A DNA stretch of 64,000 nucleotides from a virus. The notes beneath the pieces are model-generated. The model had not been told where the DNA came from. It ran no database searches and saw nothing but the letters and a program-made list of their open reading frames with translations. Position numbers and translations under genes: made by a program. Below are positions 40,046-62,302 of the stretch, in pieces. Position 1 is the stretch's first letter; each line of letters begins with the position of its first letter. The stretch lies in IMG/VR virus record IMGVR_UViG_3300023179_000041, positions 42,279 through 106,278 of that record. The stretch is one strand, 5' to 3'.

Positions 40046-40270
40046 GAAAACAGTTTAGAGAAACGGCAAAAGCAGAATAAACCCATTCCGGCTGGAACAC
40101 CATTTTTTTGGGACAGAGGCAGAAAAGTTTGTGATTGTGCGCACTTTCACAAACGAGGGCTCAAAATGATTTTACCGAGAGCAAAAATATTTTTTGAAAG
40201 AGGTTGTCGCATGCTCTATCACGCTGTATCATGGATAGTGTCCCTAGACAACTCAAGAAATGAGAACCCA

Positions 40271-40480
40271 ATGAAAGAGTACAGAATCACCACCATGGTC
40301 ACCGTGGATGTTTTGGCCGCAAGTGAGACCCTTGCCGTCAAGTACGCCCTGGATGAGATTGACGACCACATCAGAAACAGAGAAGACACCAAGTCTGTTA
40401 AGAACCCAGTCGTTACCGGCATTGCTCAGACCTTGGATGGCGAGTTCATGGTTTTTGAACAGAAGCGTGCTAGAGCCTGA
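40271..40480 (+). CDS. small hypothetical protein
   Basis: downstream of promoter at 40204. Confidence 0.65.
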   Translation: MKEYRITTMVTVDVLAASETLAVKYALDEIDDHIRNREDTKSVKNPVVTGIAQTLDGEFMVFEQKRARA

Positions 40481-40519
40481 TATAATATGATAACAACACA
40501 ATACGAGGAGGTGAAACAA

Positions 40520-40720
40520 ATGAGCATTGACTTAGACGCCCGCGTGGAAGAAGCGGTAGACGTGGGTCTTGAAGCCTTCTGGGCTGCCATCGTGGAGAAG
40601 TTCCCCGAGTCGCAATCCGGAGACTTTGACCCGATGCTAGAAGGTGCAATGTATGCAGATATGTCCGCATACCTTCGCCACTGGCTTACACTCAATACCA
40701 ACCTAATTCCAAAGGAGTAA
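40520..40720 (+). CDS. small hypothetical protein
   Basis: GAGGAGG SD. Confidence 0.7.
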   Translation: MSIDLDARVEEAVDVGLEAFWAAIVEKFPESQSGDFDPMLEGAMYADMSAYLRHWLTLNTNLIPKE

Positions 40721-40724
40721 ACGA

Positions 40725-41015
40725 ATGTCCTTAATCAGGAACAAATGGTTTTGGTGGTTTGTCGTTCTGGTGTTGTCCTTCGGTGTGCTGCCGGTGACGA
40801 ATGCGTCGCCGATGTTGGTCGCCATGGCAATGCTGTGGGCAATCTTTTTCCCAACCATGCAATTCACTGGAGGAGTATTTAAGTTCCTCAAGTTTCATCA
40901 ATTCCCAACCCCATTTCAACTACTGAAAGGATTCAAGCGCATATGGCCCGCCGTAAGAAAAGGTCCCGTCGTCACGCGAGTGCACCGACCACGCCCATCG
41001 TCACGTACACCGTGA
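40725..41015 (+). CDS. small membrane protein
   Basis: AAGGAG SD; two hydrophobic segments. Confidence 0.55.
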   Translation: MSLIRNKWFWWFVVLVLSFGVLPVTNASPMLVAMAMLWAIFFPTMQFTGGVFKFLKFHQFPTPFQLLKGFKRIWPAVRKGPVVTRVHRPRPSSRTP

Positions 41016-41197
41016 CAGTGGCGCACGAGCCGAATGCTGAGTGTGATGCGTGCTGCATGCCGCGGCCAACGCTCATCGAGCAGGAAAGCGGCGCATGGAT
41101 TTGCGAGATGTGCGCCGGGCTCTCAAGAGGCGGCGGTGCGTTTTGGAGCATGGCATTCTTCAATGGAATCTACGATGCAGCAGGAGACGGCTGGTGA
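40943..41197 (+). CDS. small Zn-finger protein
   Basis: CxxC...CxxC. Confidence 0.55.
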   Translation: MARRKKRSRRHASAPTTPIVTYTVTVAHEPNAECDACCMPRPTLIEQESGAWICEMCAGLSRGGGAFWSMAFFNGIYDAAGDGW

Positions 41198-41694
41198 AAA
41201 TAACCGACGACATCATCGAAAACAAGAACGCAGAACTGTGGAAGGATGCAGCGCTTAAGTACGGGACGAAATTCAAAGTTCCGAATAGCGAGCAGCAGCG
41301 CATCGGCGAACTTATCCGCGGGCTGTGCGTGATGCAGGTTTGGCAAAAAACGCCATCGGCCGGCAACATAGTGCGGTTTATGCGCGATTACTCGATTGCC
41401 CAGCCGGTAATCGAGTATCTCGTCACAGAGTACCTGGGGAAAGAACGGTTGAAAGAAGCGGTCCAAGAAAAGAAACCTGAGAAGCGCGCCGACAAGTGGA
41501 AAGCCCTTGAGGAGTGGTGCAAAAACAACACTTACAAGGAAGTAACCACCGAAGAGATTGTCGGCCTTTCGGGATTTTCTTATCCAACAGTTCTAAACTA
41601 TCTTAAAACTTCCCCATACTTCCGCAAAATACAGCGGGGCTCGTGGGAAGTGAGGGACCCCAAAGCGGATAGAGAACGAGAGAAGAATGGCTAA
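41194..41694 (+). CDS. wHTH-like protein
   Basis: GGAG SD, GTG start; EEIVGLSGFSYPTV...F.KI.RG.W. Confidence 0.6.
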   Translation: MKITDDIIENKNAELWKDAALKYGTKFKVPNSEQQRIGELIRGLCVMQVWQKTPSAGNIVRFMRDYSIAQPVIEYLVTEYLGKERLKEAVQEKKPEKRADKWKALEEWCKNNTYKEVTTEEIVGLSGFSYPTVLNYLKTSPYFRKIQRGSWEVRDPKADREREKNG

Positions 41695-42148
41695 GAAGTC
41701 AACTGAGCGCATCGTACTGATGGACTTGAACGTGGCTTTGTCGTCCAACTTCAGCGAGATGCGTAATCATGCCTTTGAAGACTTCGTAAACAATCACGAG
41801 GACTATCGGAAGTGGATGACGGAACTACTTGACCCGGAATTTACGATTCTGATTACGGCGCGCAACATCAAGTGGGCCATTCCCACGTTGAAGCGCATAT
41901 ATGACCGTACCGGATGGCAGCCAGACCTCGCCCTCTTTAACGACACAGACATCGATGGCCAAGATGCTCCGGCAATCAAGGAGTATCAGATGGTCAATCG
42001 AGTATTCAAGAAATTCGGGAATGACACAGGTAAATACCACGCCATTGACTCAAACGCGAATACGCGGGCGATGTACAAGCGGCTTGGGCTGAGCAGCGTG
42101 CATGACTGTGCGCGCGGCAAGGACATGTGGTTCAGGCTCCCCTTTTAA
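41687..42148 (+). CDS. HAD-superfamily (PNK-phosphatase-like) protein
   Basis: VLMDLN, ILITAR, K, AIDSN...MY; second Asp of motif I replaced by Asn. Confidence 0.55.
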   Translation: MAKKSTERIVLMDLNVALSSNFSEMRNHAFEDFVNNHEDYRKWMTELLDPEFTILITARNIKWAIPTLKRIYDRTGWQPDLALFNDTDIDGQDAPAIKEYQMVNRVFKKFGNDTGKYHAIDSNANTRAMYKRLGLSSVHDCARGKDMWFRLPF

Positions 42149-42171
42149 CAAAACAAAGAAAGACATAAAAC

Positions 42172-42414
42172 ATGACAAGGAAGACGGAGTTCCGGCAGCC
42201 GCCGGGACCACGAAACGGCAGCCCATTTCAGGTTGCGCGTTTCGTAGACAAACTCAAAGAGACTCCTGGCGAGTGGGCGGTGTACTGCACCGGCAACATC
42301 GCGCGCACGGGTCACTCCAAAGCACAGCAATACAAGAAGCGATATCCGGGTACGGAATGGATTGTGCGACGCGAAGAAGGCGGCTACACCGTCTTTGGAA
42401 GATGGGTGGGGTAG
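42172..42414 (+). CDS. small hypothetical protein
   Basis: LKETPGEWA...VFGRWVG. Confidence 0.65.
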   Translation: MTRKTEFRQPPGPRNGSPFQVARFVDKLKETPGEWAVYCTGNIARTGHSKAQQYKKRYPGTEWIVRREEGGYTVFGRWVG

Positions 42415-42424
42415 ATTGCCGCAC

Positions 42425-42688
42425 ATGAAACCAATCACCGTGAGTGCTGCGGCAAATACCCGTAGTGATGGATTGCGCATCGTTGCAGTTTTGCGCGAAC
42501 TCGATGAAACAGGAGAACTCCTGTTACATGAAGCAAAGAAGGGAATGGGGTGGACGGTCACGGGCTATGTGTGCTTGTCCCTCGACAATCTTCGCAAACT
42601 ACGAAATCGTTTCAACGACATGGGTGTACTTGCCTCGGTGAAGGATGCTGACCGGCCACATGGCCCAAGGGAACGGCCTGCGCAGTAA
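42425..42688 (+). CDS. small hypothetical protein
   Basis: ORF ends inside repeat copy 3. Confidence 0.45.
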   Translation: MKPITVSAAANTRSDGLRIVAVLRELDETGELLLHEAKKGMGWTVTGYVCLSLDNLRKLRNRFNDMGVLASVKDADRPHGPRERPAQ

Positions 42689-42759
42689 AATAAAACCATT
42701 TCTACTGGAACACCATTTTTTGGGCTAGGGGCAAAATGAGACACTATTGCCGAAGTGTC

Positions 42760-42915
42760 TCACGGTAAACAGTTGAGACTGAACCAATCCTTTATTTTCT
42801 GCCAACGCGACCTATTTTCCCAATCGCGCATAGCCAGTTTCAGGCGCACATACAGGAGTTTTATTTCATCGTCGGTCATATTTTCCAGTTTGGTGTTGAA
42901 TGTTTGTTTGTCCAT
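42760..42915 (-). CDS. small hypothetical protein on opposite strand
   Basis: GAAAGG SD; hairpin TGAGACACT/AGTGTCTCA at its end. Confidence 0.45.
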   Translation of the reverse strand: MDKQTFNTKLENMTDDEIKLLYVRLKLAMRDWENRSRWQKIKDWFSLNCLP

Positions 42916-42985
42916 ACCCTTTCTACGCACGAACTTTTTGGGGTGTGACGTTGGCAAATAAGATTCTTTGTGCTACAATGGGTGT

Positions 42986-43234
42986 ATGAATCAAACTTAT
43001 GTGCTCCAAAAAACCAATGATAAGGGATACCGGCGATTCGCAGCAAAGGTCTTAGGCGACCGAGGCGGAACCACCAACACCCTTCGCAATGCCTTGACTT
43101 GGGATAGTTTTGCCAATGCTGAGACTTTCCGTATTATCCATAACCTGACTCAGTTTGATGTTGTCCTTTCAGACAATACGGACGACGAGCAGACAGAAGT
43201 GCGCGCGTATTGGGCTGCCAAGAATGGAAAATAA
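42986..43234 (+). CDS. small hypothetical protein, leaderless
   Basis: ATG 7 nt after TACAAT. Confidence 0.65.
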   Translation: MNQTYVLQKTNDKGYRRFAAKVLGDRGGTTNTLRNALTWDSFANAETFRIIHNLTQFDVVLSDNTDDEQTEVRAYWAAKNGK

Positions 43235-43541
43235 ACCAGACTGGACGGATATGCTCCTTGCGCCACCCGAAAGTATCCCCGACTACATAATCGAAGACCA
43301 CGAAGACTGGTGGATTTGTAAGTGTAAGAACCAGCCAGACTCAGATGGGTTTAGTCCTTGTAGTCCTATCGGCGCGCGTTGCGAGCCAGATGACGACAGT
43401 TGGGACGGAACCCACTACCTATGTGAACGGTGTTTTCGTATCATCGACCAACATACACTTCAGATAATGGGTATCCCCTCAGACGAAGTAATCCAACAGA
43501 ACGAGTCGTATCGTTGGCACGATGTGTCCTTATTTGACTGA
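43224..43541 (+). CDS. Cys-rich small protein
   Basis: CKC.N.P..DGF.PC...CERC.RII. Confidence 0.65.
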   Translation: MENKPDWTDMLLAPPESIPDYIIEDHEDWWICKCKNQPDSDGFSPCSPIGARCEPDDDSWDGTHYLCERCFRIIDQHTLQIMGIPSDEVIQQNESYRWHDVSLFD

Positions 43542-43618
43542 TAAGGTTGCTAAGTGTGCTACAATATGATACAATCTAAGTGTAAGCAATAATCAACTCA
43601 ACAAGAAAAGAGAAACTA

Positions 43619-43936
43619 ATGGCTACTACAACTATGGAAGATTACTGGCTTGATGTCGCAGAGGCGTGTCATGCGGCGCACCTCATCGCGTGGGATACGT
43701 GCCACAAGATTTATCTCGCTATGGACAAAACTCAGGCTGACTGGTTTGAGGAAAACTATCTCACTGAGCGCGGCACTCCAGAAGAAATGCTGGAAACTCT
43801 CAAGCGTTGGTACGAGCGTTCGTGCTGGCTTAGGTTCATTTCGGCGGTAGAAACCAACGAGGCTGACCCCAACGAAGGCTTCACCGACCTCATTCCTCAA
43901 GGCGCGGAAGAAGAAGAAGAGGAGGAGTATGCGTGA
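43619..43936 (+). CDS. acidic small protein
   Basis: own promoter; WDTCHKIYL. Confidence 0.7.
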   Translation: MATTTMEDYWLDVAEACHAAHLIAWDTCHKIYLAMDKTQADWFEENYLTERGTPEEMLETLKRWYERSCWLRFISAVETNEADPNEGFTDLIPQGAEEEEEEEYA

Positions 43937-44142
43937 TGGAGAAAATTAACGTCATCCGCACCTTCACCTACGATGTCGCGGCAGTCAAAGAGTCAATTCG
44001 GGAACTTAACCACGACCCTGAGTTAGAAGTGTCTGACGACGAAGTGATGGACTTGGTCTATGGGTGGGCATATGAAGATATGCGCTCAGTCCCGTCCCGT
44101 CACGAACTCATCTTCCAAGATGAGGATGGCAACGATATCTAG
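43933..44142 (+). CDS. acidic small protein
   Basis: GGAGGAG SD. Confidence 0.65.
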   Translation: MMEKINVIRTFTYDVAAVKESIRELNHDPELEVSDDEVMDLVYGWAYEDMRSVPSRHELIFQDEDGNDI

Positions 44143-44201
44143 GTTGTAAAACCACCTACAATGTGCTACAATGTAATCAACCCAATAGAAAGGCAAACAC
44201 A

Positions 44202-44441
44202 ATGAACAAATATGTAGTTCGCGTCACCGCGTCCCTTGATATCTCCTATGTAATTGAGGGAGAGGATATGGACGACGCGATGGAAAACTCTCTTGACCGC
44301 TTTGACCCCAAGAATATTGTCGGAATAGACCACATTCATTGGGACAAGCCGTGGGACATTGAGGAGTACGCCGTAGGCGCGCCCCACCGTGTCCTTACAG
44401 AGAAAGAACTGAAGCCCTATCAGGAAGCAGGAATCATCTGA
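44202..44441 (+). CDS. small hypothetical protein
   Basis: own promoter and GAAAGG SD. Confidence 0.65.
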   Translation: MNKYVVRVTASLDISYVIEGEDMDDAMENSLDRFDPKNIVGIDHIHWDKPWDIEEYAVGAPHRVLTEKELKPYQEAGII

Positions 44442-44797
44442 TGGGCGCAGACTTCTTTCTATGTGTCCTCGAAATAAAACACACAAAGAGTGTCGCTCTG
44501 GCAAAGGCGAAAGACCTGAACCTGACCAAAGACGACTTTCATACCTTTGAGGACGCAGGCATTTGGTTTGACTGGACTGGCGATGACGCAGAACTGGTTA
44601 AAGAGATGCGTGCGAGGCTCCTAGAGGCTGTGGAGGCCGTTTATAGCGCAACCCAGCGTCGCGACTGTTCATACTTCTATGTGGACGGCGACAGGGTGTT
44701 CTACGCCACCGGTGGGACTTCGTGGGGCGGCGAACCAAGCGATGTCTGGGACGACTTCCTCCTTGTCCAGCAATACTCCAAAGAAATCTTGGAGTAG
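44441..44797 (+). CDS. hypothetical protein
   Basis: TGATG coupling; TGGTSWG motif. Confidence 0.7.
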   Translation: MGADFFLCVLEIKHTKSVALAKAKDLNLTKDDFHTFEDAGIWFDWTGDDAELVKEMRARLLEAVEAVYSATQRRDCSYFYVDGDRVFYATGGTSWGGEPSDVWDDFLLVQQYSKEILE

Positions 44798-44866
44798 AGG
44801 TTGGCAAGTGTGCTACAATGTGCTACAATGTAAGTAATAACCAAACTCAATGAAAGGGAATACACA

Positions 44867-45346
44867 ATGGGATTAGACCAATACCTCTACGCAAAGAAAT
44901 ACTCTTGCCCGAACGACATAACTGGCAACGAGCGTTGGAAGCAGATGAACGCTGACTTCTCAAAGTTTAAGAAGTTGCTTGGCGACGACGCTAAATACAT
45001 TCATAAAGAGTTGCCAAGTATTTCTGTCGAGATGAAAATCGGCTATTGGCGCAAGGCAAATGCCATTCACCAATGGTTCGTGGACAACTGCCAGAAGGGT
45101 GAGGACGACTGCCGTGAAGCCTATGTGTCTCGTGAACAACTTGAGGAACTCTTGGGAGTAGTCAATAAAGTCCTTGCTGACCACAGCAAGGCTGATGAAC
45201 TACTGCCAACACAGTCAGGTTTCTTCTTCGGCTCAACCGAGTACGACGAGTATTACTTTGGCGACCTTGAACTGACCAAGAAGATACTGAAGAACGCCCT
45301 CTCTATGCCGAAAGAGTGGGACTTCGGATACTCAAGTTCTTGGTAA
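44867..45346 (+). CDS. conserved phage protein (MGLD...YWRKAN family)
   Basis: MGLDQY, YWRKANAIHQWF, LLPT.SGFFFGST.YD, YSSSW. Confidence 0.8.
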   Translation: MGLDQYLYAKKYSCPNDITGNERWKQMNADFSKFKKLLGDDAKYIHKELPSISVEMKIGYWRKANAIHQWFVDNCQKGEDDCREAYVSREQLEELLGVVNKVLADHSKADELLPTQSGFFFGSTEYDEYYFGDLELTKKILKNALSMPKEWDFGYSSSW

Positions 45347-45354
45347 TAACTAAA

Positions 45355-45463
45355 CACATAAGGGCAGATGACTTGGCTGGGGCGGGACGCCGCTACTTCC
45401 AGTAATGGATGTCGTTGCCGATGCTGAAAAGATGGCTGAAATAAACCATCGTTCCCTTGTGTG
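45355..45463 (+). ncRNA. candidate structured RNA (multi-stem)
   Basis: CACATAAGGG/CCCTTGTGTG closing stem with nested hairpins; no ORF in track. Confidence 0.4.
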
Positions 45464-45501
45464 AAGTTGTAAAACGACAAGAAAGGTGATACAATATCAT
45501 T

Positions 45502-45726
45502 ATGGACAAGACAACCAAATACGAAAACATAATCAACAGTATTATCAACGCCATTACCCATCACGGCGACCTCGCCACTGATGGAGAGTGCCTAGATGAG
45601 GTTTGGGGAGTTCTTGAGCAGGCTGGCTACGGCGAGCAACTCAGGAAAGTCCAAGCCGAACAAGAAGCCGACCACTTGGCGTTCATAGAAGCAAACCGCG
45701 TTCGGAGTGGTGGCGATGACGACTGA
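45502..45726 (+). CDS. small hypothetical protein, leaderless
   Basis: ATG 7 nt after TACAAT; TDGECLD. Confidence 0.65.
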   Translation: MDKTTKYENIINSIINAITHHGDLATDGECLDEVWGVLEQAGYGEQLRKVQAEQEADHLAFIEANRVRSGGDDD

Positions 45727-45982
45727 CCTTTGTGTTTACTGTCATCGCTCAACGGCGTTCGGTAGCGGCAACGGCCTGTTCGTGAACCGTATTCCAGTCG
45801 ATGACGGCTGGGGTTGCGCGGAATGCTCAGGCTTTGAGTGCGACGAGTGCGGAGAACAGATTTATCTGGACTCAGAAGTTCGCGTCGAGGGCTACGACGA
45901 AGGCAAATATCTGTACGGCAACTATCACCAAGAGTGCTACAACAGAACAAAACACGGCGACGCAAGTTATGGTGTCGTATGA
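45716..45982 (+). CDS. small Zn-binding protein
   Basis: three CxxC; FVNRIP. Confidence 0.65.
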   Translation: MTTDLCVYCHRSTAFGSGNGLFVNRIPVDDGWGCAECSGFECDECGEQIYLDSEVRVEGYDEGKYLYGNYHQECYNRTKHGDASYGVV

Positions 45983-46067
45983 AAGACATACTCGTGGTCA
46001 TTGCCCTGTTCGCTGTTCTTGCGGCTGTATTGGCCATTTACATCAAAACAAACGAAAGAGATACACA

Positions 46068-46298
46068 ATGAGCATTGTCTATTGTGATGCTTGTAGCGGG
46101 ACGTGGTTTCTTGACGCCCCGGTACGCATCGATACGCAAGGCTGGGATGACGCCGACTGGAATGCGTGGGACAATGTGATGTCCGACGCCGAACGCGGCG
46201 ACTACGCAGATAAATACGCGCACGCACAAATGTACGGCACTGTCGACAAAATGCCTTCTCCTCAAGAATATTCTCGTGGACAGGTTGGAGATGGCTGA
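46068..46298 (+). CDS. small hypothetical protein
   Basis: GAAAGAG SD-like. Confidence 0.55.
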   Translation: MSIVYCDACSGTWFLDAPVRIDTQGWDDADWNAWDNVMSDAERGDYADKYAHAQMYGTVDKMPSPQEYSRGQVGDG

Positions 46299-46362
46299 TT
46301 ATTGTGCTACAATGTAAGTGTAAGCAATAACCAATAACCAACTCAATGAAAGGGAATACAAA

Positions 46363-47037: not shown

Positions 47038-47041
47038 GGGT

Positions 47042-47294: not shown

Positions 47295-47391
47295 CAAAGC
47301 GCGAGTGACCTCGCGCACAGAGGTTGTGGTGATGTCAAACAGTATGTATAATGAAGATGTAATACCAACACACATAGAAAGCAGAAAAGCA

Positions 47392-47556
47392 ATGAGCAAG
47401 ACCAAGACGGCGTCAAAGCCTAAGTACCCACTCATCGCCTTCCGTCTCTCGGAGGATATGGCGCGTCAAATCGCGACCGCATCCAAAGAGGACAAGGTAA
47501 GCAAGTCGGCAGTCATCAAGTCCGCTATTGAGGCTTACCTCAAGAAGCGCGGATAA
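47392..47556 (+). CDS. ribbon-helix-helix (CopG-like) regulator
   Basis: IAFRLSEDM...I...S....VSKSAVIKSAIEAYL. Confidence 0.75.
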   Translation: MSKTKTASKPKYPLIAFRLSEDMARQIATASKEDKVSKSAVIKSAIEAYLKKRG

Positions 47557-47780
47557 CGTAGCGTCCCTTGCGGCTGGGCAATCAGCCCCAAGGGAACGGC
47601 CGCACTGTAAATTAAATCCAATTTATCTGGAACACCATTTTTTGGGCCAGAGGCAAAAACCAAAGTAGCCGGGTCAGGCAAGAACCACATCCGCGAACAT
47701 ATTCTTTCGGGAAGGTTGCAAACCTGACTCGGCTATGGTACAATGTAGTTGTGGCACAACACCCACAGAAAGAAAAAATA

Positions 47781-48014
47781 ATGAACAACGCAATGAACAA
47801 AAAGGCACTGCTTGAAGTTGCAAGCCGAGTAAAGAGCCTGCGTGAGACCAACGGTCTCTCACAGGGTCAGTTGGCTGAGAGCGCAGGCATTGACCGCAAA
47901 ACCATCAACAGAATCGAGAACGGTCACTTCTCGCCGTCACTAGATACATTTTTCCGTATCTGCTACGCGCTTGATACCCGACCAGAAAAACTCGTGACGG
48001 GAATCAAGGTATGA
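47781..48014 (+). CDS. XRE-family HTH regulator
   Basis: LR...GLSQ.QLAE.AGIDRKTINRIENG...PSL. Confidence 0.9.
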   Translation: MNNAMNKKALLEVASRVKSLRETNGLSQGQLAESAGIDRKTINRIENGHFSPSLDTFFRICYALDTRPEKLVTGIKV

Positions 48015-49567: not shown

Positions 49568-49695
49568 CCCTGACCCCAAGGGAACGGCCTGCCGGTATAA
49601 ATAAATCCATTATTCGAGGAACACCATTTTTTGGGGCAGGGACAAAAACTCGGCAGCAAGATTCACAAACACACAACGGGGGCCCGGGCCGAAAG

Positions 49696-49716
49696 TTATC
49701 CACAGGCTGTGGAAAA
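49696..49716. promoter_or_regulatory. inverted pair of DnaA boxes
   Basis: TTATCCACA-GGC-TGTGGAAAA. Confidence 0.7.
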
Positions 49717-50958: not shown

Positions 50959-50972
50959 CGAACACGCGTTCG
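50959..50972. promoter_or_regulatory. LexA (SOS) box, actinobacterial type
   Basis: CGAAC-ACGC-GTTCG. Confidence 0.65.
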
Positions 50973-51290
50973 GGCCGCGAGCGCGCGGCGAGGCCGGGAA
51001 CAGGGACCGACGAACCGGACATGCCAGGGTCCAAGGGAACGGCGCAGCATAAGAATAAAACCATTGGTAATGGAACACCATTTCTTGGGTCGGGAGCAGG
51101 AGCAGGTTTACAGCGCACCGGCGCATAGCAAAACTGTTAGGCAAGCCTTACAAAAGAAACTTTGCACAATCTCAGTTTCGGGTTGCGCACCACACCCCAA
51201 GTGTGGTACAGTATAGGTATGGGGTTAGCACCCCAGAAAATAATTCAGAATAAGGTTGCGAAAGCGACTAGAATGTGATACAGTATAAGT

Positions 51291-53505: not shown

Positions 53506-53761
53506 TCCTTGGCTGGCCCGGCCTCATCCTTTCCGGGCCGGGCCGGCACCCAAGGGAATGGCGCAGCCTTAAATAAATCCGAATATCGAGGAACACCATA
53601 TTTTGTGGCAGGGGCAGAATTCATCAATTGCTTATTAGCAAGTCGTGCAGATAAGCCGCAGGGGCCAAGGTCACTCTCCGTGGTCGAGCGGCCACCCTGG
53701 GCGGTCAGAACTTTTTTCCGTAGAAGTTGCCAACTGTCTAACAAACTGCTATAATCTAGGT

Positions 53762-54623: not shown

Positions 54624-54851
54624 GTGGTCAGCGAGGCTGGTGGGGCAACCCCCCACCAGCCCAGCCCCAAGGGAACGGCGCAAGGCAAAATAAATCCATT
54701 TATCGAGGAACACCATTTTTTGGGGCAGGAGCAGAAATCGCTTTCACCGGCCCCGGGCTTGTGAAAGTGTGAACAAGCACAAGCCGAATGTCACACAACT
54801 GTAATACTTCTCAGGTTGCCAAATGTCTAACACTATGCCTATAATGTAGTT

Positions 54852-55512: not shown

Positions 55513-55673
55513 GTGGTGGGCTGGTGGGGTGAAAGCCCCACCAGCAAACACCCAGCCGATAGGCCGGGAATAGGGGCCGACGAAAATAATCGGCCGCCGA
55601 GTTGCGAAAGCGTCTTGGGTGTGATACAATAAAAGTGTAAGGTAAACCAACAACAGAAAGGTAAGAAACAGAA

Positions 55674-55940: not shown

Positions 55941-55996
55941 GGTCGAGTGCGGCTGGTGGGGTTCCTTACCTCCTTTCCCCACCAGCCCAAGACCTC
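55939..55996 (+). ncRNA. candidate hairpin sRNA with anti-SD loop
   Basis: promoter 55902-55930 with no gene downstream; loop TTCCTTACCTCCTTT. Confidence 0.55.
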
Positions 55997-56091
55997 CCCA
56001 CGGCAGGGCCGACAGGGGCAGAATCGCAGAAAGGCAGGTTGCAAAACGCGAACAGATGTGATACACTGGAAGTATGAGGAAAGGAAAAACA

Positions 56092-56328
56092 ATGACCAAG
56101 AAAATCAGGCAATACCGATACGAGCCCGTCGGACTGGATGTCTTTGACGCTCGCCCGCATCAGCCAAAGCGTGGAACCCTCGTGGTGAAGTGCTCAGGCG
56201 GAATGGGTGCGCCAAAGAACGGAACGATGGGTCACTCGTTCGTGAAAGACGCAGTGACAGGTGAGTTCTACGGCCTCGTGCTGAATAACTCACTGAAGCC
56301 CGCTGGCCTCGTCCCTACCTCACGGTAG
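56092..56328 (+). CDS. small hypothetical protein
   Basis: G.P.NGTMGH...GLV..NSL. Confidence 0.65.
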   Translation: MTKKIRQYRYEPVGLDVFDARPHQPKRGTLVVKCSGGMGAPKNGTMGHSFVKDAVTGEFYGLVLNNSLKPAGLVPTSR

Positions 56329-56440
56329 GGCGAGTGCCGCCCGGAGGCAAACTTTGCCGCCGAGGTTGTCAAACAGCAAAATAGGTGATACAATTTAAGT
56401 AGTGGGGCAAAAGCACCACCTAACAGAAAGGAAGTAAACA

Positions 56441-56905
56441 ATGCCATTGACATGGGATATCGGAAACACAAAGGCTTACGCCAAAGACCCTGACGGAATC
56501 TGGGTGAAAGACGAGTACGGTCACACCACCGTACGCGCCGACATTCAGACGTTCATCTTCTGGGGTGGCGTGGTCGGATACGGTCGCATCACCGAAGCAA
56601 ACGCTGCCGACTACTACGGTCGGTCAAAGGCTGTTGAGGCTCTGATGCAAAACTCAATGATGCACGAGTGGAGAGAAGATGGCGAACGCCACAACCTCTA
56701 CATCACTCCAGAGATGGTAGATGAGATGGTCGGACTCAGCACCAACCACAGCACCTACAGCATCACCGAGTGGGCAAACCGTATTGCGAAGTACGGAAAC
56801 AACGTGGTCGAGATGCCAGCAAAAGTCATCAAAGCCATCGTGACCACTGAGTCGTGGAACTACGAGCAGTGGGTCAAAGCCCAGAAAGAGTTAGTCACAG
56901 CCTGA
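56441..56905 (+). CDS. hypothetical protein
   Basis: MPLTWD...ITE.N...GLSTN. Confidence 0.75.
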   Translation: MPLTWDIGNTKAYAKDPDGIWVKDEYGHTTVRADIQTFIFWGGVVGYGRITEANAADYYGRSKAVEALMQNSMMHEWREDGERHNLYITPEMVDEMVGLSTNHSTYSITEWANRIAKYGNNVVEMPAKVIKAIVTTESWNYEQWVKAQKELVTA

Positions 56906-56962
56906 CGGGTCTGGCTGGTGGGGAACCACCCCACCAGCCGATGCCCGGAGGCAGAGGAAAAA

Positions 56963-57163
56963 ATGAACTACATCATCAAACTCGAAACAGCCGTGGGCGA
57001 AATCTGCCTCGGCCCATACTCAAAACTCAGTGAGGCGCTCAGAGTGGCAAAAACCAGGGGGCAAATCATTGCGGTCATCAAACCCACAAAACTAAACGCA
57101 GTAGATATTCAGGCCATGACCGAAGCAGAGTTGCTAAAACTCCTAGAGTGTGATACACTGTAA
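56963..57163 (+). CDS. small hypothetical protein
   Basis: GAGGA SD. Confidence 0.55.
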   Translation: MNYIIKLETAVGEICLGPYSKLSEALRVAKTRGQIIAVIKPTKLNAVDIQAMTEAELLKLLECDTL

Positions 57164-57187
57164 TTATCCAACAAGAAAGGAAACACA

Positions 57188-57340
57188 ATGAGCAAGACAA
57201 CGTGGTGGGAGCATCTCCCAGAAGACATCCAAGAAGGCAAAGCGCCGCTTACAGAAGACGACTTCTGGCAAGCAGTAGCCGATGCCAACGACCTTGATGT
57301 CTCCGAGATAGCAGATGGAGACGTCATCGAGTGGCTCTAG
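57188..57340 (+). CDS. small acidic protein (50 aa)
   Basis: promoter and GAAAGG SD; below cutoff. Confidence 0.6.
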   Translation: MSKTTWWEHLPEDIQEGKAPLTEDDFWQAVADANDLDVSEIADGDVIEWL

Positions 57341-57623
57341 CCAAGTGGGGTGAGTGGCCGGCGTGGTCACTCACCCCAAGGCTCGGGAGCCCAAGGGAAC
57401 CGCCCCGAAAACAAAAATTAAACCATTTCTGACGGAACACCATTTCTTTGCCGGGGGCAAAAACAAGGTCGCGGGCTTGTGAAAGTTCGTACTATCACTT
57501 GTTAGGCACGCCTAACACCTATTGTTACAGTTGTGTAACAAGTGTCGCACAATGCGAGGAAATCTACCCCACCAATGGTATGCTTAGAGTGTAAGGTAAA
57601 AACAACAACAAGGAGAAAACACA

Positions 57624-57794
57624 ATGAGTGAAGTGAACGTCACCTACCTAACATGGGACGAAGTACCAGAAGAAATCCAATGGGAATACTACGAGCGCAT
57701 AATGGCGAAGACGTGGCACCCATGCGACCGCATGAACGAAGACAAGGCATGGAAGTACGCCGAAGAACTATGGGAAAACGAAAACGGTAGGTAA
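57624..57794 (+). CDS. small protein (56 aa)
   Basis: AAGGAG SD; below cutoff. Confidence 0.6.
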   Translation: MSEVNVTYLTWDEVPEEIQWEYYERIMAKTWHPCDRMNEDKAWKYAEELWENENGR

Positions 57795-57859
57795 CTCCGT
57801 TACACCCATAAGGCATAATGAGAGTGTAAGGCAATAACAAAACAACAAGGAGAAACCCA

Positions 57860-58132
57860 ATGAGAATAGAAGTAACCCAACTCAACTCAACGGCAGTGAG
57901 AAAACTCACTTACGTTCTGGGTGCTATTGACCCAGCCGAGACAGACGAAAATAACGAACTCACCTATGGTGAACTAGTTATTGAGTACGCCAACGGTAGC
58001 GAGTATGTCTACTACGACGTAATGCTCGGCGTGTTCACTGACCTACTCAATGCGAAGAGCATTGGGCGAGCCGTGAACGAAGACATAAAGCCGACCCACC
58101 GCTACGACAAACTCGCAACGGTAAACGCCTAG
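57860..58132 (+). CDS. KTSC domain protein
   Basis: STAV..L.Y...L.IEY.NG..Y.Y.DV....F..LL.A.SIG...N..IK. Confidence 0.75.
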   Translation: MRIEVTQLNSTAVRKLTYVLGAIDPAETDENNELTYGELVIEYANGSEYVYYDVMLGVFTDLLNAKSIGRAVNEDIKPTHRYDKLATVNA

Positions 58133-58306
58133 TAGCAAACGGGTGTAACACAGTTAGCAATAACTGTGTTACACCCCCACGCTAAAATGGGAGTGTGGGA
58201 GAGAACTGCGTTAGCCCAGGGGCAAAACTTTCAGACGAGGTTGCGAAATCACTAGAAGTGTGATACACTTAGAGTGTAAGGTAAACCAACAACAAGGAGA
58301 AACACA

Positions 58307-58528
58307 ATGGGAACATACAGCAACCTGCCCCCGGGCGTCAGCGTCAGCGACCTCCCGGGCTGGCACGACATTACGGCAGAGGTAGAGATTATCTGCCCAA
58401 ACTGCGGCCACCAGTATTGGGAAGAACACGAAATTGACGGGCGTTGCGGATACACAACAGATGTCGAGACCCAGTGCCCAAACTGCCTACGCAGGTGGGA
58501 GCACCCAGTAACCGTGTCGCTTGACTGA
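58307..58528 (+). CDS. small Zn-ribbon protein
   Basis: NLPPGVS..DLPG; two CPNC. Confidence 0.7.
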   Translation: MGTYSNLPPGVSVSDLPGWHDITAEVEIICPNCGHQYWEEHEIDGRCGYTTDVETQCPNCLRRWEHPVTVSLD

Positions 58529-58579
58529 CCGAGCGCAGTGGTGGGGCGCAAGCCCCACCCGAACGCGCAGGGGCAGAAT

Positions 58580-58593
58580 CGAACAGGTGTTCG
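58580..58593. promoter_or_regulatory. LexA (SOS) box
   Basis: CGAAC-AGGT-GTTCG. Confidence 0.65.
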
Positions 58594-58673
58594 CCCGTGC
58601 GCCAGAGGCCGCGGCGGGCGGCGAGGCACGCGCAGAGGGCGGAGAGCGTCTCCCACCTCTCCCGTCTATTATT

Positions 58674-58702
58674 ATTGTATCACACAGCGAGAGAAAAAAC
58701 AA
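58674..58702 (-). promoter_or_regulatory. leftward promoter (also 59695-59723 and 61285-61313)
   Basis: TTG...-17-TACAMT with TG extension on the minus strand. Confidence 0.7.
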
Positions 58703-58819
58703 CCTGAGCCGGCAAAAAGTTTCTGAAGTTTCTGCCCGAATAGGTTGCGAAGTGTCTAACAATCTGGCATAATTGAGTTAGTAGGGAAACCGAAGTACCT
58801 ACGAGAGAGAGGTAATGAA

Positions 58820-59110
58820 GTGAGTTATTACAAACTGCCGAGAGGCGCAAAGCGCACGAGCGAGTGGGCTGAGGTATCCAGCGAGGCTTACCCTACGGGG
58901 TGGGCTTACGACGAGATTACCAAAGTCACCTACGAAGCCGAAGTGACCTACGACGATGGCATAAAGGCAAACGCCGTTATGGTGGAGTTGTACCACAAAG
59001 GCAAGCGTGTCTATCGGCAAGCGTTCTACGGCGAGACAGCCGACAGCGACGCTTGGCGAGAGAGTGGCGACGCCCTCAACAAGTTGGCAATGGCAACGCC
59101 AACCGCATAG
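58820..59110 (+). CDS. small hypothetical protein
   Basis: GAGGT SD; FYGETA.SDA.R. Confidence 0.65.
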   Translation: MSYYKLPRGAKRTSEWAEVSSEAYPTGWAYDEITKVTYEAEVTYDDGIKANAVMVELYHKGKRVYRQAFYGETADSDAWRESGDALNKLAMATPTA

Positions 59111-59287
59111 GTCGTGAGAGCACGGCGGGGTTCAACCTCCTTCCCCCGCCGTGCCAGACCTCTCCCGCCAAAGGCCGGGAATAGGGGCTGACGAAAAAAA
59201 GTTGGGAATGAGTTGCGAAGTTATCGAGAGTGTGATACACTAATAGTAGTGGGGCAACCGCACCACTAGACCAAGGAAGGAAACACA

Positions 59288-59479
59288 ATGAGTACCCACA
59301 TCTACCACAACCTCAAAGCGGAGGGTGTCGTCGTAGAAATGCGAAACGGCACACTTGTTATCGAAATGCGCGAGGGAGACAAGTGGACTTGGCTGAACAT
59401 TACGGGCGAAATCGTAGAAATCGCTCGCAAGTTGGGCAACCCAACCGTCAAGGCAAAGCCAGAAACGGTAAACGCCTAA
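59288..59479 (+). CDS. small hypothetical protein
   Basis: promoter and AAGGAAGG SD. Confidence 0.65.
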   Translation: MSTHIYHNLKAEGVVVEMRNGTLVIEMREGDKWTWLNITGEIVEIARKLGNPTVKAKPETVNA

Positions 59480-59832
59480 GAGCGCAAGTGGGCTGAGGGG
59501 GACGAGAAGTGCCCCCTCGGCTCAATGCTCACGGCCGGGAGCCCAAGGGAACGCCTAGCGCAAATAAATCCAATTATCAGGAAACACCATATTTTGGGCG
59601 GCCGGGAGCAGGAGCAGTCTGAGGCGCGCGGGAAAAGACAAGAGGGGGGAGGGCTAGGGCTCTCCCGTGTCGCCTGCCTTGCCCTACTACTATCAGTGTA
59701 TCACACTCCGACGGAAAAAGCAACCTCAAAAAGAAAAATAAGTTTCTGCCCGAATAGGTTGACAAATGTCTAACAGCGTGCCTATAATGTAGTTGTAGGG
59801 AAAAAGAAGTACCTACAGAAAGAGGTAATGAA

Positions 59833-60093
59833 ATGAAAGTCCTTATCGGCGCCGAGACCCCAGAAAGCACGGCTATCGCAAAGTGGCACTATTCCACTGA
59901 AGACGAGGCTGGCACTATGGGCGCTCTCTTTATCACTTTCACGAATGGAAGCGTGTACGGCTACCCCAACTGCCCACTGACTATGGCACTCGCTATGGCA
60001 CAGCAGGCAAGCGTTGGTCGCTACTTCGCCCACACCGTGAAGCCCTACTTTGGCGAGAACTTCGTCAAGGTTGGCGAACAGGTGAACGCCTAA
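59833..60093 (+). CDS. KTSC domain protein
   Basis: STAI...Y...L.ITF.NG..Y.Y...SVGRYF...VK; consensus TTGACA/TATAAT promoter. Confidence 0.7.
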   Translation: MKVLIGAETPESTAIAKWHYSTEDEAGTMGALFITFTNGSVYGYPNCPLTMALAMAQQASVGRYFAHTVKPYFGENFVKVGEQVNA

Positions 60094-60237
60094 GACCCTC
60101 GCTAGTGGTGGGGCGCAAGCCCCACCACAACAGCGAAGCCGCTGGGGCAGAAATCGTAGATGGAGTTGCGAAACCGCGATAGATGTGATACAATAAGAGT
60201 GTAGGGAAAAAGAAGTACCTACAAGAGAGAGGTAAAA

Positions 60238-60483
60238 ATGAGACACAAAGGAACAGTGGCAAGCGCCGAAGTGGTGCTGAGCCCAACAATGGAATACGGA
60301 GTACGGACAGAGTGGGCAGTTGCCTTACACTTCCAAAGCCCGACGGGTGACGCCTCGGACTTTATGGTGCGAGAGTTGCCCTGCCTGAACCGTGAACAGG
60401 CAGTGATTATCGCAGACAAGTGGAATAGCGAAGTTTGCCCAGAGTTAGTGGGCAGGTTCGCAGTCTCCGACTTGGTGAACTGA
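60238..60483 (+). CDS. small hypothetical protein
   Basis: promoter, SD and 3' hairpin. Confidence 0.65.
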   Translation: MRHKGTVASAEVVLSPTMEYGVRTEWAVALHFQSPTGDASDFMVRELPCLNREQAVIIADKWNSEVCPELVGRFAVSDLVN

Positions 60484-60609
60484 AAACGGCGTAAGGCTGG
60501 TGGGGCGCTCCCCCCACCAGCCGAGCCGCTGGGGCAGAACTCTAAAAATCTTTGCGAAAGAGTTGCGAAACCTCGCAGAGTGTGATACACTATTCTTATG
60601 GAGGTAAAG

Positions 60610-60744
60610 ATGAAAAAGCAAAAGAGCAAGCGCAAGGGCTGGAACTCAGCCGATAGGCAAGCGTTCGCCGACGGGCTTCGCACCCGTGCGGTGACTATCC
60701 ACCACAAGCGCAAGCCTGCGCCTGACCGCCGAGAGTGGGACTGA
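60610..60744 (+). CDS. small basic protein (44 aa)
   Basis: GGAGG SD; below cutoff. Confidence 0.55.
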   Translation: MKKQKSKRKGWNSADRQAFADGLRTRAVTIHHKRKPAPDRREWD

Positions 60745-60894
60745 CCCACCCAGGGCGGCGGGCAACCTAGGGCGCGCGGGCGGCGGAGGCCGCGGCGGGC
60801 AAAACTTTGCGCCGCAGGTTGCGAAATAGAAGTAGTTGTGATACACTAGAAGTAGTGGGGCAACCGCCTCACACAACACAAAGGAGAAAGAACA

Positions 60895-61137
60895 ATGGAT
60901 ACAATGACCGAGGGTGAGATAGCGCAGCAGAAGGCGAATGAAGTCAAGTTCATTCTGCGCCGACTGATTGACCAAGTAGAGGCAGCCGAAGCGGAGGCAG
61001 CCGACACGCCCCACGACGAAGAAAAGAGCAGCCTCATTCAGGGTGCACTGAGGGTCGTACAGCGACGTTGCAGCAACCTCGCCTACGACATTGTGTACGC
61101 ATACGGAACGCTGCTCAACACGCAAGAAGCAAAGTAG
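60895..61137 (+). CDS. small helical protein
   Basis: promoter and AAGGAG SD. Confidence 0.65.
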   Translation: MDTMTEGEIAQQKANEVKFILRRLIDQVEAAEAEAADTPHDEEKSSLIQGALRVVQRRCSNLAYDIVYAYGTLLNTQEAK

Positions 61138-61394
61138 TCCCGAGGGGGGAGGGCGACCTCCCCCACAAGGGGCGGCCAGGGGCCGCGCGGGGCGCGGCGG
61201 GCAACCCAGGGCGAAGAGGGGCGCGCGGGCTGCCACTTGCCGGAGAGGGGCGCGAGCCGTCTCCTACCCCACCCCTACAATAATAGTGTATCACAGACTG
61301 ACGCAAAAAGCAACCTCAAACAAAAAATAAAAAATGCTCAGGAAGTTGCGAAACCTTGCGAAGTGTGATACAGTATTAGTAGGAGGAAAACACA

Positions 61395-61646
61395 ATGAAC
61401 ATCGGACAACTAGCAACGGCACACATTCGCAACGGCGGAACCGCTAAGGCTTCGTCGTGGCGTGCTTATCAGGGCGAGAAGGTACGAGAAATCTACCACT
61501 ACACCACCTTGATGGCGAAGGTCGAAGGCAAGACCCTCACCAAGGTAAGTGAAGGTTGGGGCTCAGTCACCGATAAGCAAGGCTGGCGAAAACTGAGCAA
61601 CGCTGCCCGAAATGCAGGGTTCACCGTGAACGAGTTGCAAAACTAA
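61395..61646 (+). CDS. small hypothetical protein
   Basis: AGGAGG SD; HY.T.M...GWGS.TDKQG. Confidence 0.7.
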   Translation: MNIGQLATAHIRNGGTAKASSWRAYQGEKVREIYHYTTLMAKVEGKTLTKVSEGWGSVTDKQGWRKLSNAARNAGFTVNELQN

Positions 61647-61670
61647 TAGAAGTGTGATACAATAGGACTA

Positions 61671-61734
61671 GAGTGGTTGGGGCGGGCTAAACCGGCTGCG
61701 GAACAGAGGCGTCGTGCTCTCGCCTCAACCACTC
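61671..61734 (+). ncRNA. candidate ~65-nt hairpin RNA
   Basis: own promoter; 16-bp stem with two G-U pairs; no ORF. Confidence 0.55.
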
Positions 61735-61777
61735 ACAGAAAGTTGCAAAACCAAGGGAAATCTGTTATACTAAAGAT

Positions 61778-61892
61778 GATGCAAAGCGAGCCCGAAGGTA
61801 TTCGTACCTTCACCAAAGGGTTAGCCGAGCACCCTCGCTGAACAACCGAAACCCCCAGCCGCAAGGGCGTAGGCAGCGTTGATTGAGAAGGC
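61778..61892 (+). ncRNA. candidate structured RNA with UUCG and GCAA tetraloops
   Basis: own promoter; GAAGGTA-TTCG-TACCTTC inside AGCGAG/CTCGCT. Confidence 0.5.
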
Positions 61893-61949
61893 CACGCAGG
61901 GTAGTTGCAAAACACTACCCTGCGTGTTATACTAAAAACAGGAGGAAAA

Positions 61950-62096
61950 ATGACACCGAGAGAACAAAACAGACTAAACCGAGAGAACCACGAGAGGGTA
62001 GAAATCTTCGACTGGGCGCTCGACATTGACCTAAACGAGGACTTCGCCAAATGGGCAGAGGAACTTCGGAGGGCTCTGGAGAGCGACGAGGACTGA
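61950..62096 (+). CDS. small acidic protein (48 aa)
   Basis: AGGAGG SD. Confidence 0.6.
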   Translation: MTPREQNRLNRENHERVEIFDWALDIDLNEDFAKWAEELRRALESDED

Positions 62097-62197
62097 CCTG
62101 CGAGCAGGGGCAGACCAGCCCCGAAGGAACGCTTTGCGCAAAAATAAATCCGAACATTCTGGAACACCATATTTTGGGCAGCCGGAGGCAAAAGTGA

Positions 62198-62302
62198 AAG
62201 TTCGCACTTTCACAAGGTCGCGGGTTTGTTAGGTCAGCCTAACACGCTCGTCACTCTCCGTGACTGCCGACCACCTAGGGTGTTGTGTTACAGTTGTGTT
62301 AC
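62198..62302. promoter_or_regulatory. string of Rex-like, IdeR/DtxR-like, BldD-like and GTnAC-n6-GTnAC boxes
   Basis: AAGTTCGCACTTTCACAA; TTAGGTCAGCCTAAC; GTCACTCTCCGTGAC; GTTACAGTTGTGTTAC. Confidence 0.55.

What the first reader, a model, noticed from the sequence alone, without database searches (positions are those of the whole stretch)
40135..62302. Mix-and-match strings of host regulator-like boxes downstream of the 70-bp element
Seen: Rex-type TTGTGMnnnnnTTCACAA at 40135 (near perfect), 54759, 62198 and weakly 57477; TTAGGnnnGCCTWAC at 51137, 57502, 62229; GTCACTCTCCGTGRY at 53670, 62250; GTnAC-n6-GTnAC at 57524, 62287 and a variant at 54790. All four types sit within 105 bp after copy 11, in the same order as the three after copy 9, and mostly upstream of rather than over the -35/-10. 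Known: these resemble Rex (NADH), IdeR/DtxR (iron), BldD (c-di-GMP) and MtrA/GlnR-type sites. Inference: a panel that senses host state, titrates host regulators, or coats incoming DNA with host proteins.
Basis: partly seen in the sequence, partly recalled or inferred. Interest (0 to 1): 0.82.

Follow-up and report, generated by a model that had tools for sequence, protein, structure and literature searches.

The report
Host-type regulator sites in phage promoter hubs
An uncultured lake phage places short protein-binding DNA boxes between its early gene units, and several of them match the sites that actinobacteria use for iron, nitrogen, DNA-damage and replication control, so the phage probably ties its early genes to the host's own regulators.

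Summary
All four box families sit at the stated places. Their copies lie almost entirely in the roughly 2% of the genome that follows the 70-bp element, and they are 34-218 times denser there across five related phages.

- **Box B** is exactly the published one-dimer IdeR/DtxR site, TTAGG-N4-CCTAA. In sampled actinobacterial genomes it sits upstream of iron-type and ZIP transporter genes.
- **Box D** is a GlnR/MtrA-type direct repeat with an 11-bp period. Actinobacteria use it upstream of glnA and of response-regulator genes. In the phages it lies 7-14 bp before the -35.
- **Box A** has Rex half-sites but a 10-bp spacer instead of 4. The same 24-mer overlaps the promoter of rex genes on five bacterial metagenome contigs. 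It was not enriched in sampled Actinomycetota.
- **Box C** fits the loose BldD formula in only a few copies and remains unassigned.

No homologue of LexA, IdeR, Rex, DnaA or OmpR-type regulators was found in the phage record (CheckV 79% complete). Copy-to-copy changes rule out selected hairpins.

Most likely these are control hubs fed by host regulators. A sponge role, or phage-encoded binders for A and C, remain open. No binding has been measured.

This scan has noted similar arrays before, at this genome's left end and in other large phages.

The parts
40129..40152 (.). Box A, weakest copy (TTGTGATTGTGCGCACTTTCACAA), after the partial element at 40071-40124
54759..54782 (.). Box A variant (TTGTGAAAGTGTGAACAAGCACAA). 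The left half is conserved and the right half diverged.
57477..57500 (.). Box A (TTGTGAAAGTTCGTACTATCACTT), abutting box B
62192..62215 (.). Box A, best copy (AAGTGAAAGTTCGCACTTTCACAA). It shares 21-22 of 24 positions with the rex-promoter 24-mer of the metagenome contigs.
51135..51152 (.). Box B (TGTTAGGCAAGCCTTACA), one mismatch to TTAGG-N4-CCTAA
   Evidence: PMC8464063
57500..57517 (.). Box B (TGTTAGGCACGCCTAACA), exact IdeR/DtxR one-dimer consensus
62227..62244 (.). Box B (TGTTAGGTCAGCCTAACA), exact IdeR/DtxR one-dimer consensus
53670..53684 (.). Box C (GTCACTCTCCGTGGT)
62250..62284 (.). Box C (GTCACTCTCCGTGAC) plus a degenerate second unit (CGACCACCTAGGGTG). In relatives the two units are tandem.
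54789..54806 (+). Box D direct repeat (TGTCACACAACTGTAATA), 9 bp before the -35
57523..57540 (+). Box D (TGTTACAGTTGTGTAACA)
62286..62303 (+). Box D direct repeat (TGTTACAGTTGTGTTACA), 14 bp before the -35
49696..49716 (.). Inverted pair of DnaA-type boxes (TTATCCACAGGCTGTGGAAAA). The distance to the -35 is the same (+17) in four phages.
50959..50972 (.). LexA/Cheo-type box CGAACACGCGTTCG, directly after a terminator-like hairpin
58580..58593 (.). LexA/Cheo-type box CGAACAGGTGTTCG
62667..62696 (.). Tandem LexA/Cheo-type boxes (TGAACACTTGTTCG and CGAACACGCGTTCG), directly after the hairpin at 62631-62666
62120..62193 (+). 70-bp element, copy 11, the upstream border of the hub. Other copies: 42664-42736, 47586-47658, 49575-49647, 51029-51101, 53549-53622, 54664-54736, 57391-57463, 59540-59612. 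Partial copies: 39151-39191, 40071-40124.
62318..62346 (+). Promoter of the class with TGTCTAACA in its spacer, downstream of box D. Same class at 53727-53755, 54816-54845, 58745-58773, 59759-59788.
47751..48014 (+). Phage Xre-type HTH gene, a candidate phage-encoded binder for the unassigned boxes
   Evidence: HTH_3, E 2.3e-14
47305..47556 (+). Weak ribbon-helix-helix ORF, a second candidate phage-encoded binder
   Evidence: RHH_1, E 4.6e-4, at the cut-off

Best explanation
The boxes are protein-binding operators on DNA. They are strung together in control hubs of about 100-200 bp. Each hub lies between a terminator-like hairpin plus the 70-bp element and the next early promoter.

Shown here:
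- The boxes are real and confined to the hubs.
- They are kept in related phages.
- They are conserved by sequence, not by pairing.
- B and D are operator types that Actinomycetota use at metal-transporter genes and at glnA and response-regulator genes.

Inferred:
- Host IdeR/DtxR binds B.
- A host OmpR-family regulator of GlnR/MtrA type binds D.
- Host LexA and DnaA bind their canonical boxes.
- A Rex-family protein binds A.
- Whatever binds C is unknown.

Proposed mechanism. D ends 7-14 bp before the -35, and the DnaA pair ends 17 bp before it. These two act as promoter-proximal inputs to a class of early promoters that carries TGTCTAACA in its spacer. The distal repressor-type boxes (LexA, IdeR, A, C) modulate or insulate the unit, for example by blocking read-through from the unit upstream. 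Early genes would thus be tied to host iron, nitrogen, redox, DNA-damage and replication state.
For: - **Chance and placement:** statistics against chance, and confinement to hubs.
- **Conservation:** the same boxes follow the same element in G001-G005 and in further metagenome contigs, with gains and losses of single boxes at orthologous hubs.
- **Not hairpins:** the central three 'pairs' of A are paired in only 12, 4 and 8 of 18 distinct copies, with an invariant left side and no compensation. B keeps invariant arms and a free centre. D is a direct repeat.
- **B:** matches TTAGGNNNNCCTAA, the IdeR one-dimer consensus (PMC8464063). The pattern hits 84 of 401 Actinomycetota genomes, against about 40 for the reversed control. 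Hits often form tandem pairs. Seven of 10 examined lie before SBP_bac_6 genes and 2 of 10 before ZIP genes.
- **D:** hits 17 of 201 genomes against 3 for the control, upstream of glnA and OmpR-type regulator genes. The consensus is given in PMC5650626.
- **Fixed spacing:** D and the DnaA pair keep their distance to the -35 across phages.
- **No phage homologues:** six-frame searches of the phage found no LexA, Rex, DnaA or OmpR-type domain, and only a 14-bit sub-threshold hit for the IdeR domain. Only an Xre HTH, a weak RHH, WhiB and an HTH_36 protein were found.
Against: - No binding or expression data exist, and the host is unknown.
- A is not enriched in 301 sampled Actinomycetota genomes. 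Among 2.9 million viral contigs it occurs essentially only in this phage family, which fits a phage-encoded binder as well.
- C carries little information and has no assignment.
- The repressor-type boxes do not overlap promoters. LexA boxes lie 126-325 bp upstream of the next strong promoter-like site, which is atypical for classical repression.
- The record is only 79% complete by CheckV, so a phage regulator could be missing.
- Many small early ORFs have no recognisable fold.
Confidence: 0.55

Rival explanations
1. Sponge or decoy. The hubs exist to soak up host global regulators once the phage DNA replicates. That would derepress host SOS, iron-uptake, redox and nitrogen genes, or block host replication. 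Promoter control would not be the point.
For: - Several different repressor-type sites are packed outside promoters.
- LexA boxes sit 126-325 bp from the next strong promoter-like site, right after hairpins.
- Sites occur in many copies per genome.
- B-type boxes, often in tandem, appear in 17 other viral contigs.
Against: - D and the DnaA pair keep a fixed distance to the -35 in paralogous and orthologous hubs.
- Only about 3-7 sites of each kind exist per genome.
- The 17 exact B hits in viral contigs are near my own rough estimate for chance, which rests on an assumed collection size.
- No measurement of titration exists.
Confidence: 0.2
2. Some or all boxes, above all A and C, are operators of phage-encoded early regulators such as the Xre HTH, the RHH protein or one of the many small unknown ORFs. 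Their likeness to host sites would then be partial or convergent.
For: - A occurs only in this phage family among viral contigs and is not enriched in Actinomycetota.
- In relatives, an A variant abuts the -35 of a conserved promoter like a repressor operator.
- The phage encodes an Xre HTH and a weak RHH.
- C is a short pseudo-palindrome of the kind that Xre-type domains bind (inference).
Against: - B, D, LexA and DnaA boxes match host-type sites exactly, and B and D were found at fitting host genes.
- Two or three detectable phage DNA-binding proteins cannot cover six or more box types.
- The A 24-mer overlaps rex promoters in bacteria.
Confidence: 0.2
3. The boxes are hairpins acting in RNA or single-stranded DNA, for example as terminators, processing sites or leader structures.
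For: A, B and C are inverted repeats with short loops. The terminator scan picks up A and B as stem-loops.
Against: - There are no compensatory changes. Changes break pairing on one side only.
- D is a direct repeat.
- The boxes lie upstream of the mapped promoter-like sites.
- No Rfam family matches.
Confidence: 0.04

Closest known systems
Spo0A boxes on the virulent Bacillus phages phi29 and Nf (PMC2731898)
   Same: Binding sites for a host global regulator on a lytic phage genome tie early transcription, and replication, to host state.
   Different: That case has one regulator and a few sites that overlap promoters and origins, and binding was shown by experiment. Here there are five or six box types in repeated modular hubs, mostly upstream of promoters, and nothing has been tested.
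NtcA sites and Pho boxes in T4-like cyanophages (PMC3037559)
   Same: Multiple copies of host nutrient-regulator sites (1-16 NtcA sites per genome) are predicted to drive phage genes.
   Different: Those are single sites acting as promoters of scattered genes. They are not strings of different operators behind a conserved repeat element.
IdeR/DtxR one-dimer operator TTAGGNNNNCCTAA (PMC8464063)
   Same: Box B at 57500 and 62227 matches all 10 specified positions. The same pattern stands before iron-type transporter genes in sampled Actinomycetota.
   Different: B is not the full 19-bp two-dimer box. It lies on phage DNA, about 30 bp upstream of a weak promoter at 51135 and further upstream at the other two copies, not over a promoter of an iron gene.
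Rex operators (TTGTGAAW4TTCACAA, PMC2883068)
   Same: The half-sites TTGTGAA and TTCACAA are identical.
   Different: The spacer is 10 bp instead of 4. The right half is degenerate in most copies.
MtrA/GlnR direct-repeat sites of actinobacteria (PMC5650626)
   Same: Two 6-bp GTnACn units are separated by 5 bp.
   Different: The units are more A/T-rich. The regulator cannot be told apart from other OmpR-family members.

Membership tests
Rex operator (ROP) | Inverted half-sites TTGTGAA / TTCACAA | tested here: met
   62192, 57477, 54759 and 40129 carry them, complete or nearly so.
Rex operator (ROP) | 18-bp site with a 4-bp spacer (TTGTGAAW4TTCACAA, PMC2883068) | tested here: not met
   The spacer is 10 bp in every copy.
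Rex operator (ROP) | Found at promoters of rex or redox genes in bacteria | tested here: inconclusive
   The same 24-mer overlaps the rex promoter on 5 metagenome contigs. That Rex is only 35-40% identical to actinobacterial Rex, and the motif is not enriched in 301 Actinomycetota genomes.
Rex operator (ROP) | Binding by Rex, relieved by NADH | not testable with these tools
   Needs EMSA.
IdeR/DtxR operator | 14-bp one-dimer consensus TTAGGNNNNCCTAA (PMC8464063) | tested here: met
   Exact at 57502-57515 and 62229-62242; one mismatch at 51137.
IdeR/DtxR operator | Full 19-bp two-dimer box TTAGGTTAGSCTAACCTAA | tested here: not met
   B is an 18-bp palindrome about a different centre.
IdeR/DtxR operator | Used before metal-uptake genes in the presumed host phylum | tested here: met
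   84 of 401 genomes against about 40 for the control. Hits lie before SBP_bac_6 genes (7 of 10 examined) and ZIP genes (2 of 10).
BldD box | 5'-TNAC(N)5GTNA-3' (PMC4151990) | tested here: inconclusive
   Met at 62250 (TCAC-N5-GTGA). 53670 has GTGG, and most copies in relatives have CCAC or GCGG. With six specified positions, chance matches are common.
MtrA/GlnR-type (OmpR family) site | Two 5-6-bp direct repeats GTnACn separated by 5 bp (PMC5650626) | tested here: met
   62286, 57523 and 54789, and 9 further copies in relatives and the left end.
MtrA/GlnR-type (OmpR family) site | Used at nitrogen or regulator genes in Actinomycetota | tested here: met
   17 of 201 genomes against 3 for the control. 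Hits lie upstream of glnA (L190, L191) and of response-regulator genes (L185, L186, L188).
LexA (Cheo / actinobacterial SOS) box | CGAAC-N4-GTTCG palindrome (consensus from established knowledge, not re-read here) | tested here: met
   Six exact copies in the genome, about 0.1 expected; three exact in the window plus one adjacent near-copy (TGAAC...) at 62667.
LexA (Cheo / actinobacterial SOS) box | Overlaps the regulated promoter | tested here: not met
   126-325 bp upstream of the next strong promoter-like site.
DnaA box | TTATCCACA 9-mer (consensus from established knowledge) | tested here: met
   Inverted pair at 49696-49716, conserved with fixed spacing in four phages.

The most novel reading that the evidence does not exclude
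The hubs are multi-regulator docking arrays. One phage family would use them to read or drain at least five host global regulators at once (iron, nitrogen or cell envelope, redox, SOS, replication). Box A would reveal an undescribed long-spacer (24-bp) binding mode of Rex-family repressors, which also autoregulates rex in uncultured bacteria.
Probability: 0.2. Interest if true: 0.8.

Novelty: new variant of a known kind. Interest (0 to 1): 0.62.

Why it matters
Single host-regulator sites on phages are known, for example Spo0A, LexA, DtxR and NtcA. Here one lytic-type phage family combines several different host-type operators into repeated, evolving modules in front of its early genes.

If the sites bind host proteins, phage early expression is computed from several host signals at once, or the phage disarms several host regulons at once.

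Each box gives a direct test: EMSA, reporters, DAP-seq. The A 24-mer gives a handle on a possible second operator geometry for Rex.

Tried and rejected
- **Phage database:** no near or distant DNA match.
- **Rfam:** no family in 39000-64000 at E up to 1.
- **Genome scan for the A core:** 8 singletons in unrelated phyla, which is chance level, plus 7 copies of one repeat element in a Ca. Obscuribacter MAG. No regulon signal.
- **My first objection to IdeR** (wrong spacing) was wrong and is withdrawn after reading PMC8464063.
- **Upstream regions of 30 actinobacterial rex genes:** almost no operator of any spacing, so uninformative.
- **Literature search with raw motif strings:** only primer noise.
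- **Sequencing runs:** no RNA holder listed.
- **Laying contigs of four freshwater DNA runs:** showed the phage and variants, with assembly joints at the repeats, but nothing on transcription.
- **The look-up of encoding contigs:** The protein atlas gave mixed Bacillota and Actinomycetota neighbours.
- **Box C:** not tested in host genomes, because its conserved core (CAC-N5-GTG plus flanks) carries too little information for a clean control.
- **Unpublished genomes:** the tallies include a few (G007, G024, G054, G088, G094, G126, G180, G274). None of the loci I examined comes from them.


Full report
**Context**

The window is the right 64 kb of a 106,278-bp virus record, which CheckV rates 79% complete. 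The record carries a WhiB gene and occurs in lake and freshwater metagenomes of several studies. It has no near relative in the phage database.

From about 40 kb onward the window holds dozens of small genes. Each is served by strong sigma-70-type promoters with an extended -10. On 49.4-64 kb the scan found 21 promoter-like sites against 7.2 +/- 3.0 in shuffles.

A 70-bp element with core GGAACACCAT occurs 13 times, always on the + strand. Eleven copies lie in the window and two at the genome's left end. Each complete copy follows a terminator-like hairpin and precedes the next promoter. I call the stretch between the element and the promoter a hub.

**Observation**

To avoid circularity I took only the four boxes after copy 11 as references and asked where else the genome matches them.
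- A: 3 further hits at up to 3 mismatches, 0.0 expected from 100 Markov simulations.
- B: 5 hits, 0.13 expected.
- C: 2 hits at up to 2 mismatches, 0.19 expected.
- D: 2-3 hits, 0-0.05 expected.

Nearly all hits fall in the 2.1% of the genome that is hub.

It is a 24-mer with a 10-bp spacer, and 40129 is the weakest copy rather than a near-perfect one. The same A-B-C-D string also occurs at genome 949-1051, outside the window.

The genome further holds six exact CGAAC-N4-GTTCG boxes, against about 0.1 expected. Three of them are in the window, with an adjacent near-copy at 62667. There is also an inverted DnaA-box pair at 49696.

**Relatives**

A scan of viral contigs for the element core, and for box A, found at least nine related uncultured contigs. 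Five of them (G001-G005) carry 2-12 copies of the element, all in one orientation.

In 47 hubs of five phage sequences, box density relative to the rest of the sequences was:
- A: 218x
- B: 99x
- C: 34x
- D: 99x
- DnaA boxes: 8x
- LexA cores: 4x

A blind 7-mer count ranks A, B, TGTCTAACA, DnaA-box, C and D words on top.

One hub was aligned across four phages. A, two tandem C units and D are conserved. B is present only in two phages, a LexA box only in one, and a DnaA box only in another. So the hubs share a common order and evolve by gain and loss of whole boxes. That is the real content of 'mix and match'.

**DNA site or hairpin**

Among 18 distinct A copies the left half TTGTGAAAGTGCGAAC is nearly invariant. 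The right half varies (TTT, AAG, AAT, TAT). The three central would-be pairs are paired in only 12, 4 and 8 copies, and no change is ever compensated.

B keeps its arms and lets its centre vary. Arm changes are one-sided. D is a direct repeat of TGTnAyA with an 11-bp period.

This is the pattern of protein recognition, not of a selected stem.

**Box B**

PMC8464063 shows that one IdeR dimer binds a half site. It proposes redefining the consensus from the 19-bp box to TTAGGNNNNCCTAA. B at 57500 and 62227 matches this exactly.

In 401 sampled Actinomycetota genomes, TGTTAGGNNNNCCTAACA with up to 1 mismatch hit 84 genomes. The reversed control hit about 40 by my count. The hits I examined are intergenic and often form tandem pairs 21-25 bp apart. 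Seven of 10 lie directly before SBP_bac_6 (ferric-type) binding-protein genes and 2 of 10 before ZIP transporter genes.

B is therefore a genuine metal-regulator operator type of the presumed host phylum.

**Box D**

PMC5650626 gives the MtrA site as two 5-6-bp direct repeats, G/T-T-G/A-A-C-C-N5-G-T-G/T-A-C-N. It notes more A/T-rich versions in lower-GC species.

TGTNACANNNNTGTNACA occurs in 17 of 201 sampled genomes (22 sites), against 3 genomes for the control. Sites lie upstream of glutamine synthetase genes (2 cases) and of OmpR-type response-regulator genes (3 cases), among others.

In the phages, D ends 7-14 bp before the -35. Nine of 12 D boxes precede a promoter with TGTCTAACA in its spacer.

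**Box A**

The half-sites equal Rex half-sites, but Rex sites have a 4-bp spacer (PMC2883068).

In 301 Actinomycetota genomes the A pattern was no more frequent than its control. The only recurrent true sites were Streptomyces-type Rex operators that carry a third half-site 6 bp outside. Among viral contigs, A occurs only in this phage family, apart from one hit in a giant-virus contig that I take to be chance.

The metagenome scan added a new fact. Five independent bacterial contigs carry TTGTGAAAGTTCGAACTATCACAA. The 24-mer is invariant among diverged flanks and lies right after the -10 of a promoter in front of a rex gene (Put_DNA-bind_N plus CoA_binding). Mrp/Mbh-type genes follow. The best phage copy shares 21-22 of 24 positions.

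That Rex is only 35-40% identical to actinobacterial Rex, and none closer was found in 401 genomes.

So a long-spacer Rex-family operator plausibly exists. Whether the phage's host has such a protein is open.

**Box C**

Its constant core is CAC-TCTCC-GTG with variable flanks. The BldD formula TNAC-N5-GTNA (PMC4151990) is met at 62250 but fails in most copies. I leave C unassigned.

**Phage-encoded candidates**

Six-frame family searches of the whole record found no LexA, Rex, DnaA or OmpR-type DNA-binding domain. For the IdeR domain there was only a 14-bit hit, below the cut-off.

Pfam on 103 right-arm ORFs, plus separate Pfam scans of other ORFs in the window, found one Xre HTH, one weak RHH, WhiB and an HTH_36 protein. 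These could serve A or C. They cannot cover six or more box types.

**Mechanism**

Shown: real, conserved, sequence-constrained boxes; host-type identity of B and D; fixed promoter distance of D and of the DnaA pair, which is +17 in four phages although the flanks diverge.

Inferred: host regulators bind. The proximal boxes feed the promoter. The distal repressor-type boxes modulate or insulate. LexA boxes lie 126-325 bp from the next strong promoter-like site and right after hairpins, which suits a roadblock or a sponge better than classical occlusion.

My weights are about 0.55 for regulatory hubs fed mainly by host proteins, 0.2 for a sponge, 0.2 for phage-encoded binders of A and C, and 0.04 for hairpins.

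**Relation to earlier notes of this scan**

Notes on this genome's left end (e1-6049801) and on other large phages describe the same kind of array. I used them as leads only. The two papers they named, PMC3037559 and PMC2731898, were read here.

Noticed in passing
window 53727-53755, 54816-54845, 58745-58773, 59759-59788, 62318-62346: A second promoter class carries an invariant TGTCTAACA between -35 and -10. Nine of 12 D boxes in five phages sit just upstream of such a promoter. This suggests one regulated, possibly temporal, class.
   Followed up: partly
L130, L131, L137, L140, L143 (metagenome contigs): An invariant 24-bp palindrome with Rex half-sites and a 10-bp spacer overlaps the promoter of a rex gene followed by Mrp/Mbh-type genes. 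It may be an undescribed long-spacer Rex operator class.
   Followed up: partly
window 58648-58716, 59669-59737, 61259-61327: Three copies of a minus-strand promoter-like repeat (reverse complement of GTTG...TGTGATACAAT) point leftwards into hubs. One would transcribe across the LexA box at 58580.
   Followed up: no
window 62631-62666: A perfect 14-bp-stem hairpin (GGGGTGTAACACAG...CTGTGTTACACCCC) contains D-type words. It is followed at once by tandem LexA-type boxes, in a hub-like region without a 70-bp element.
   Followed up: no
window 47668-47733: An inverted repeat, GCCGGGTCAGG ... CCTGACTCGGC, brackets the -35 of the promoter of the Xre HTH gene and is kept in G003. It is a likely operator of the phage's own Xre protein. 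A half LexA-like box lies between the arms at 47694.
   Followed up: no
window 57490: In one freshwater run (X2), contigs read C instead of T. This turns the centre of this A copy into the family consensus TTCGCAC.
   Followed up: no
L071, L074, L075, L077, L078, L082, L083 (Ca. Obscuribacter MAG): Seven copies of a repeat element with identical flanks contain the exact box A core GTGAAAGTTCGCACTTTCAC.
   Followed up: no
L111, L113, L116, L127 and other IMG/VR contigs: Other uncultured viral contigs (GC 44-57%) carry exact B boxes in non-coding DNA. Ten of 17 have a second B-like box close by, as in actinobacterial iron-gene promoters.
   Followed up: partly
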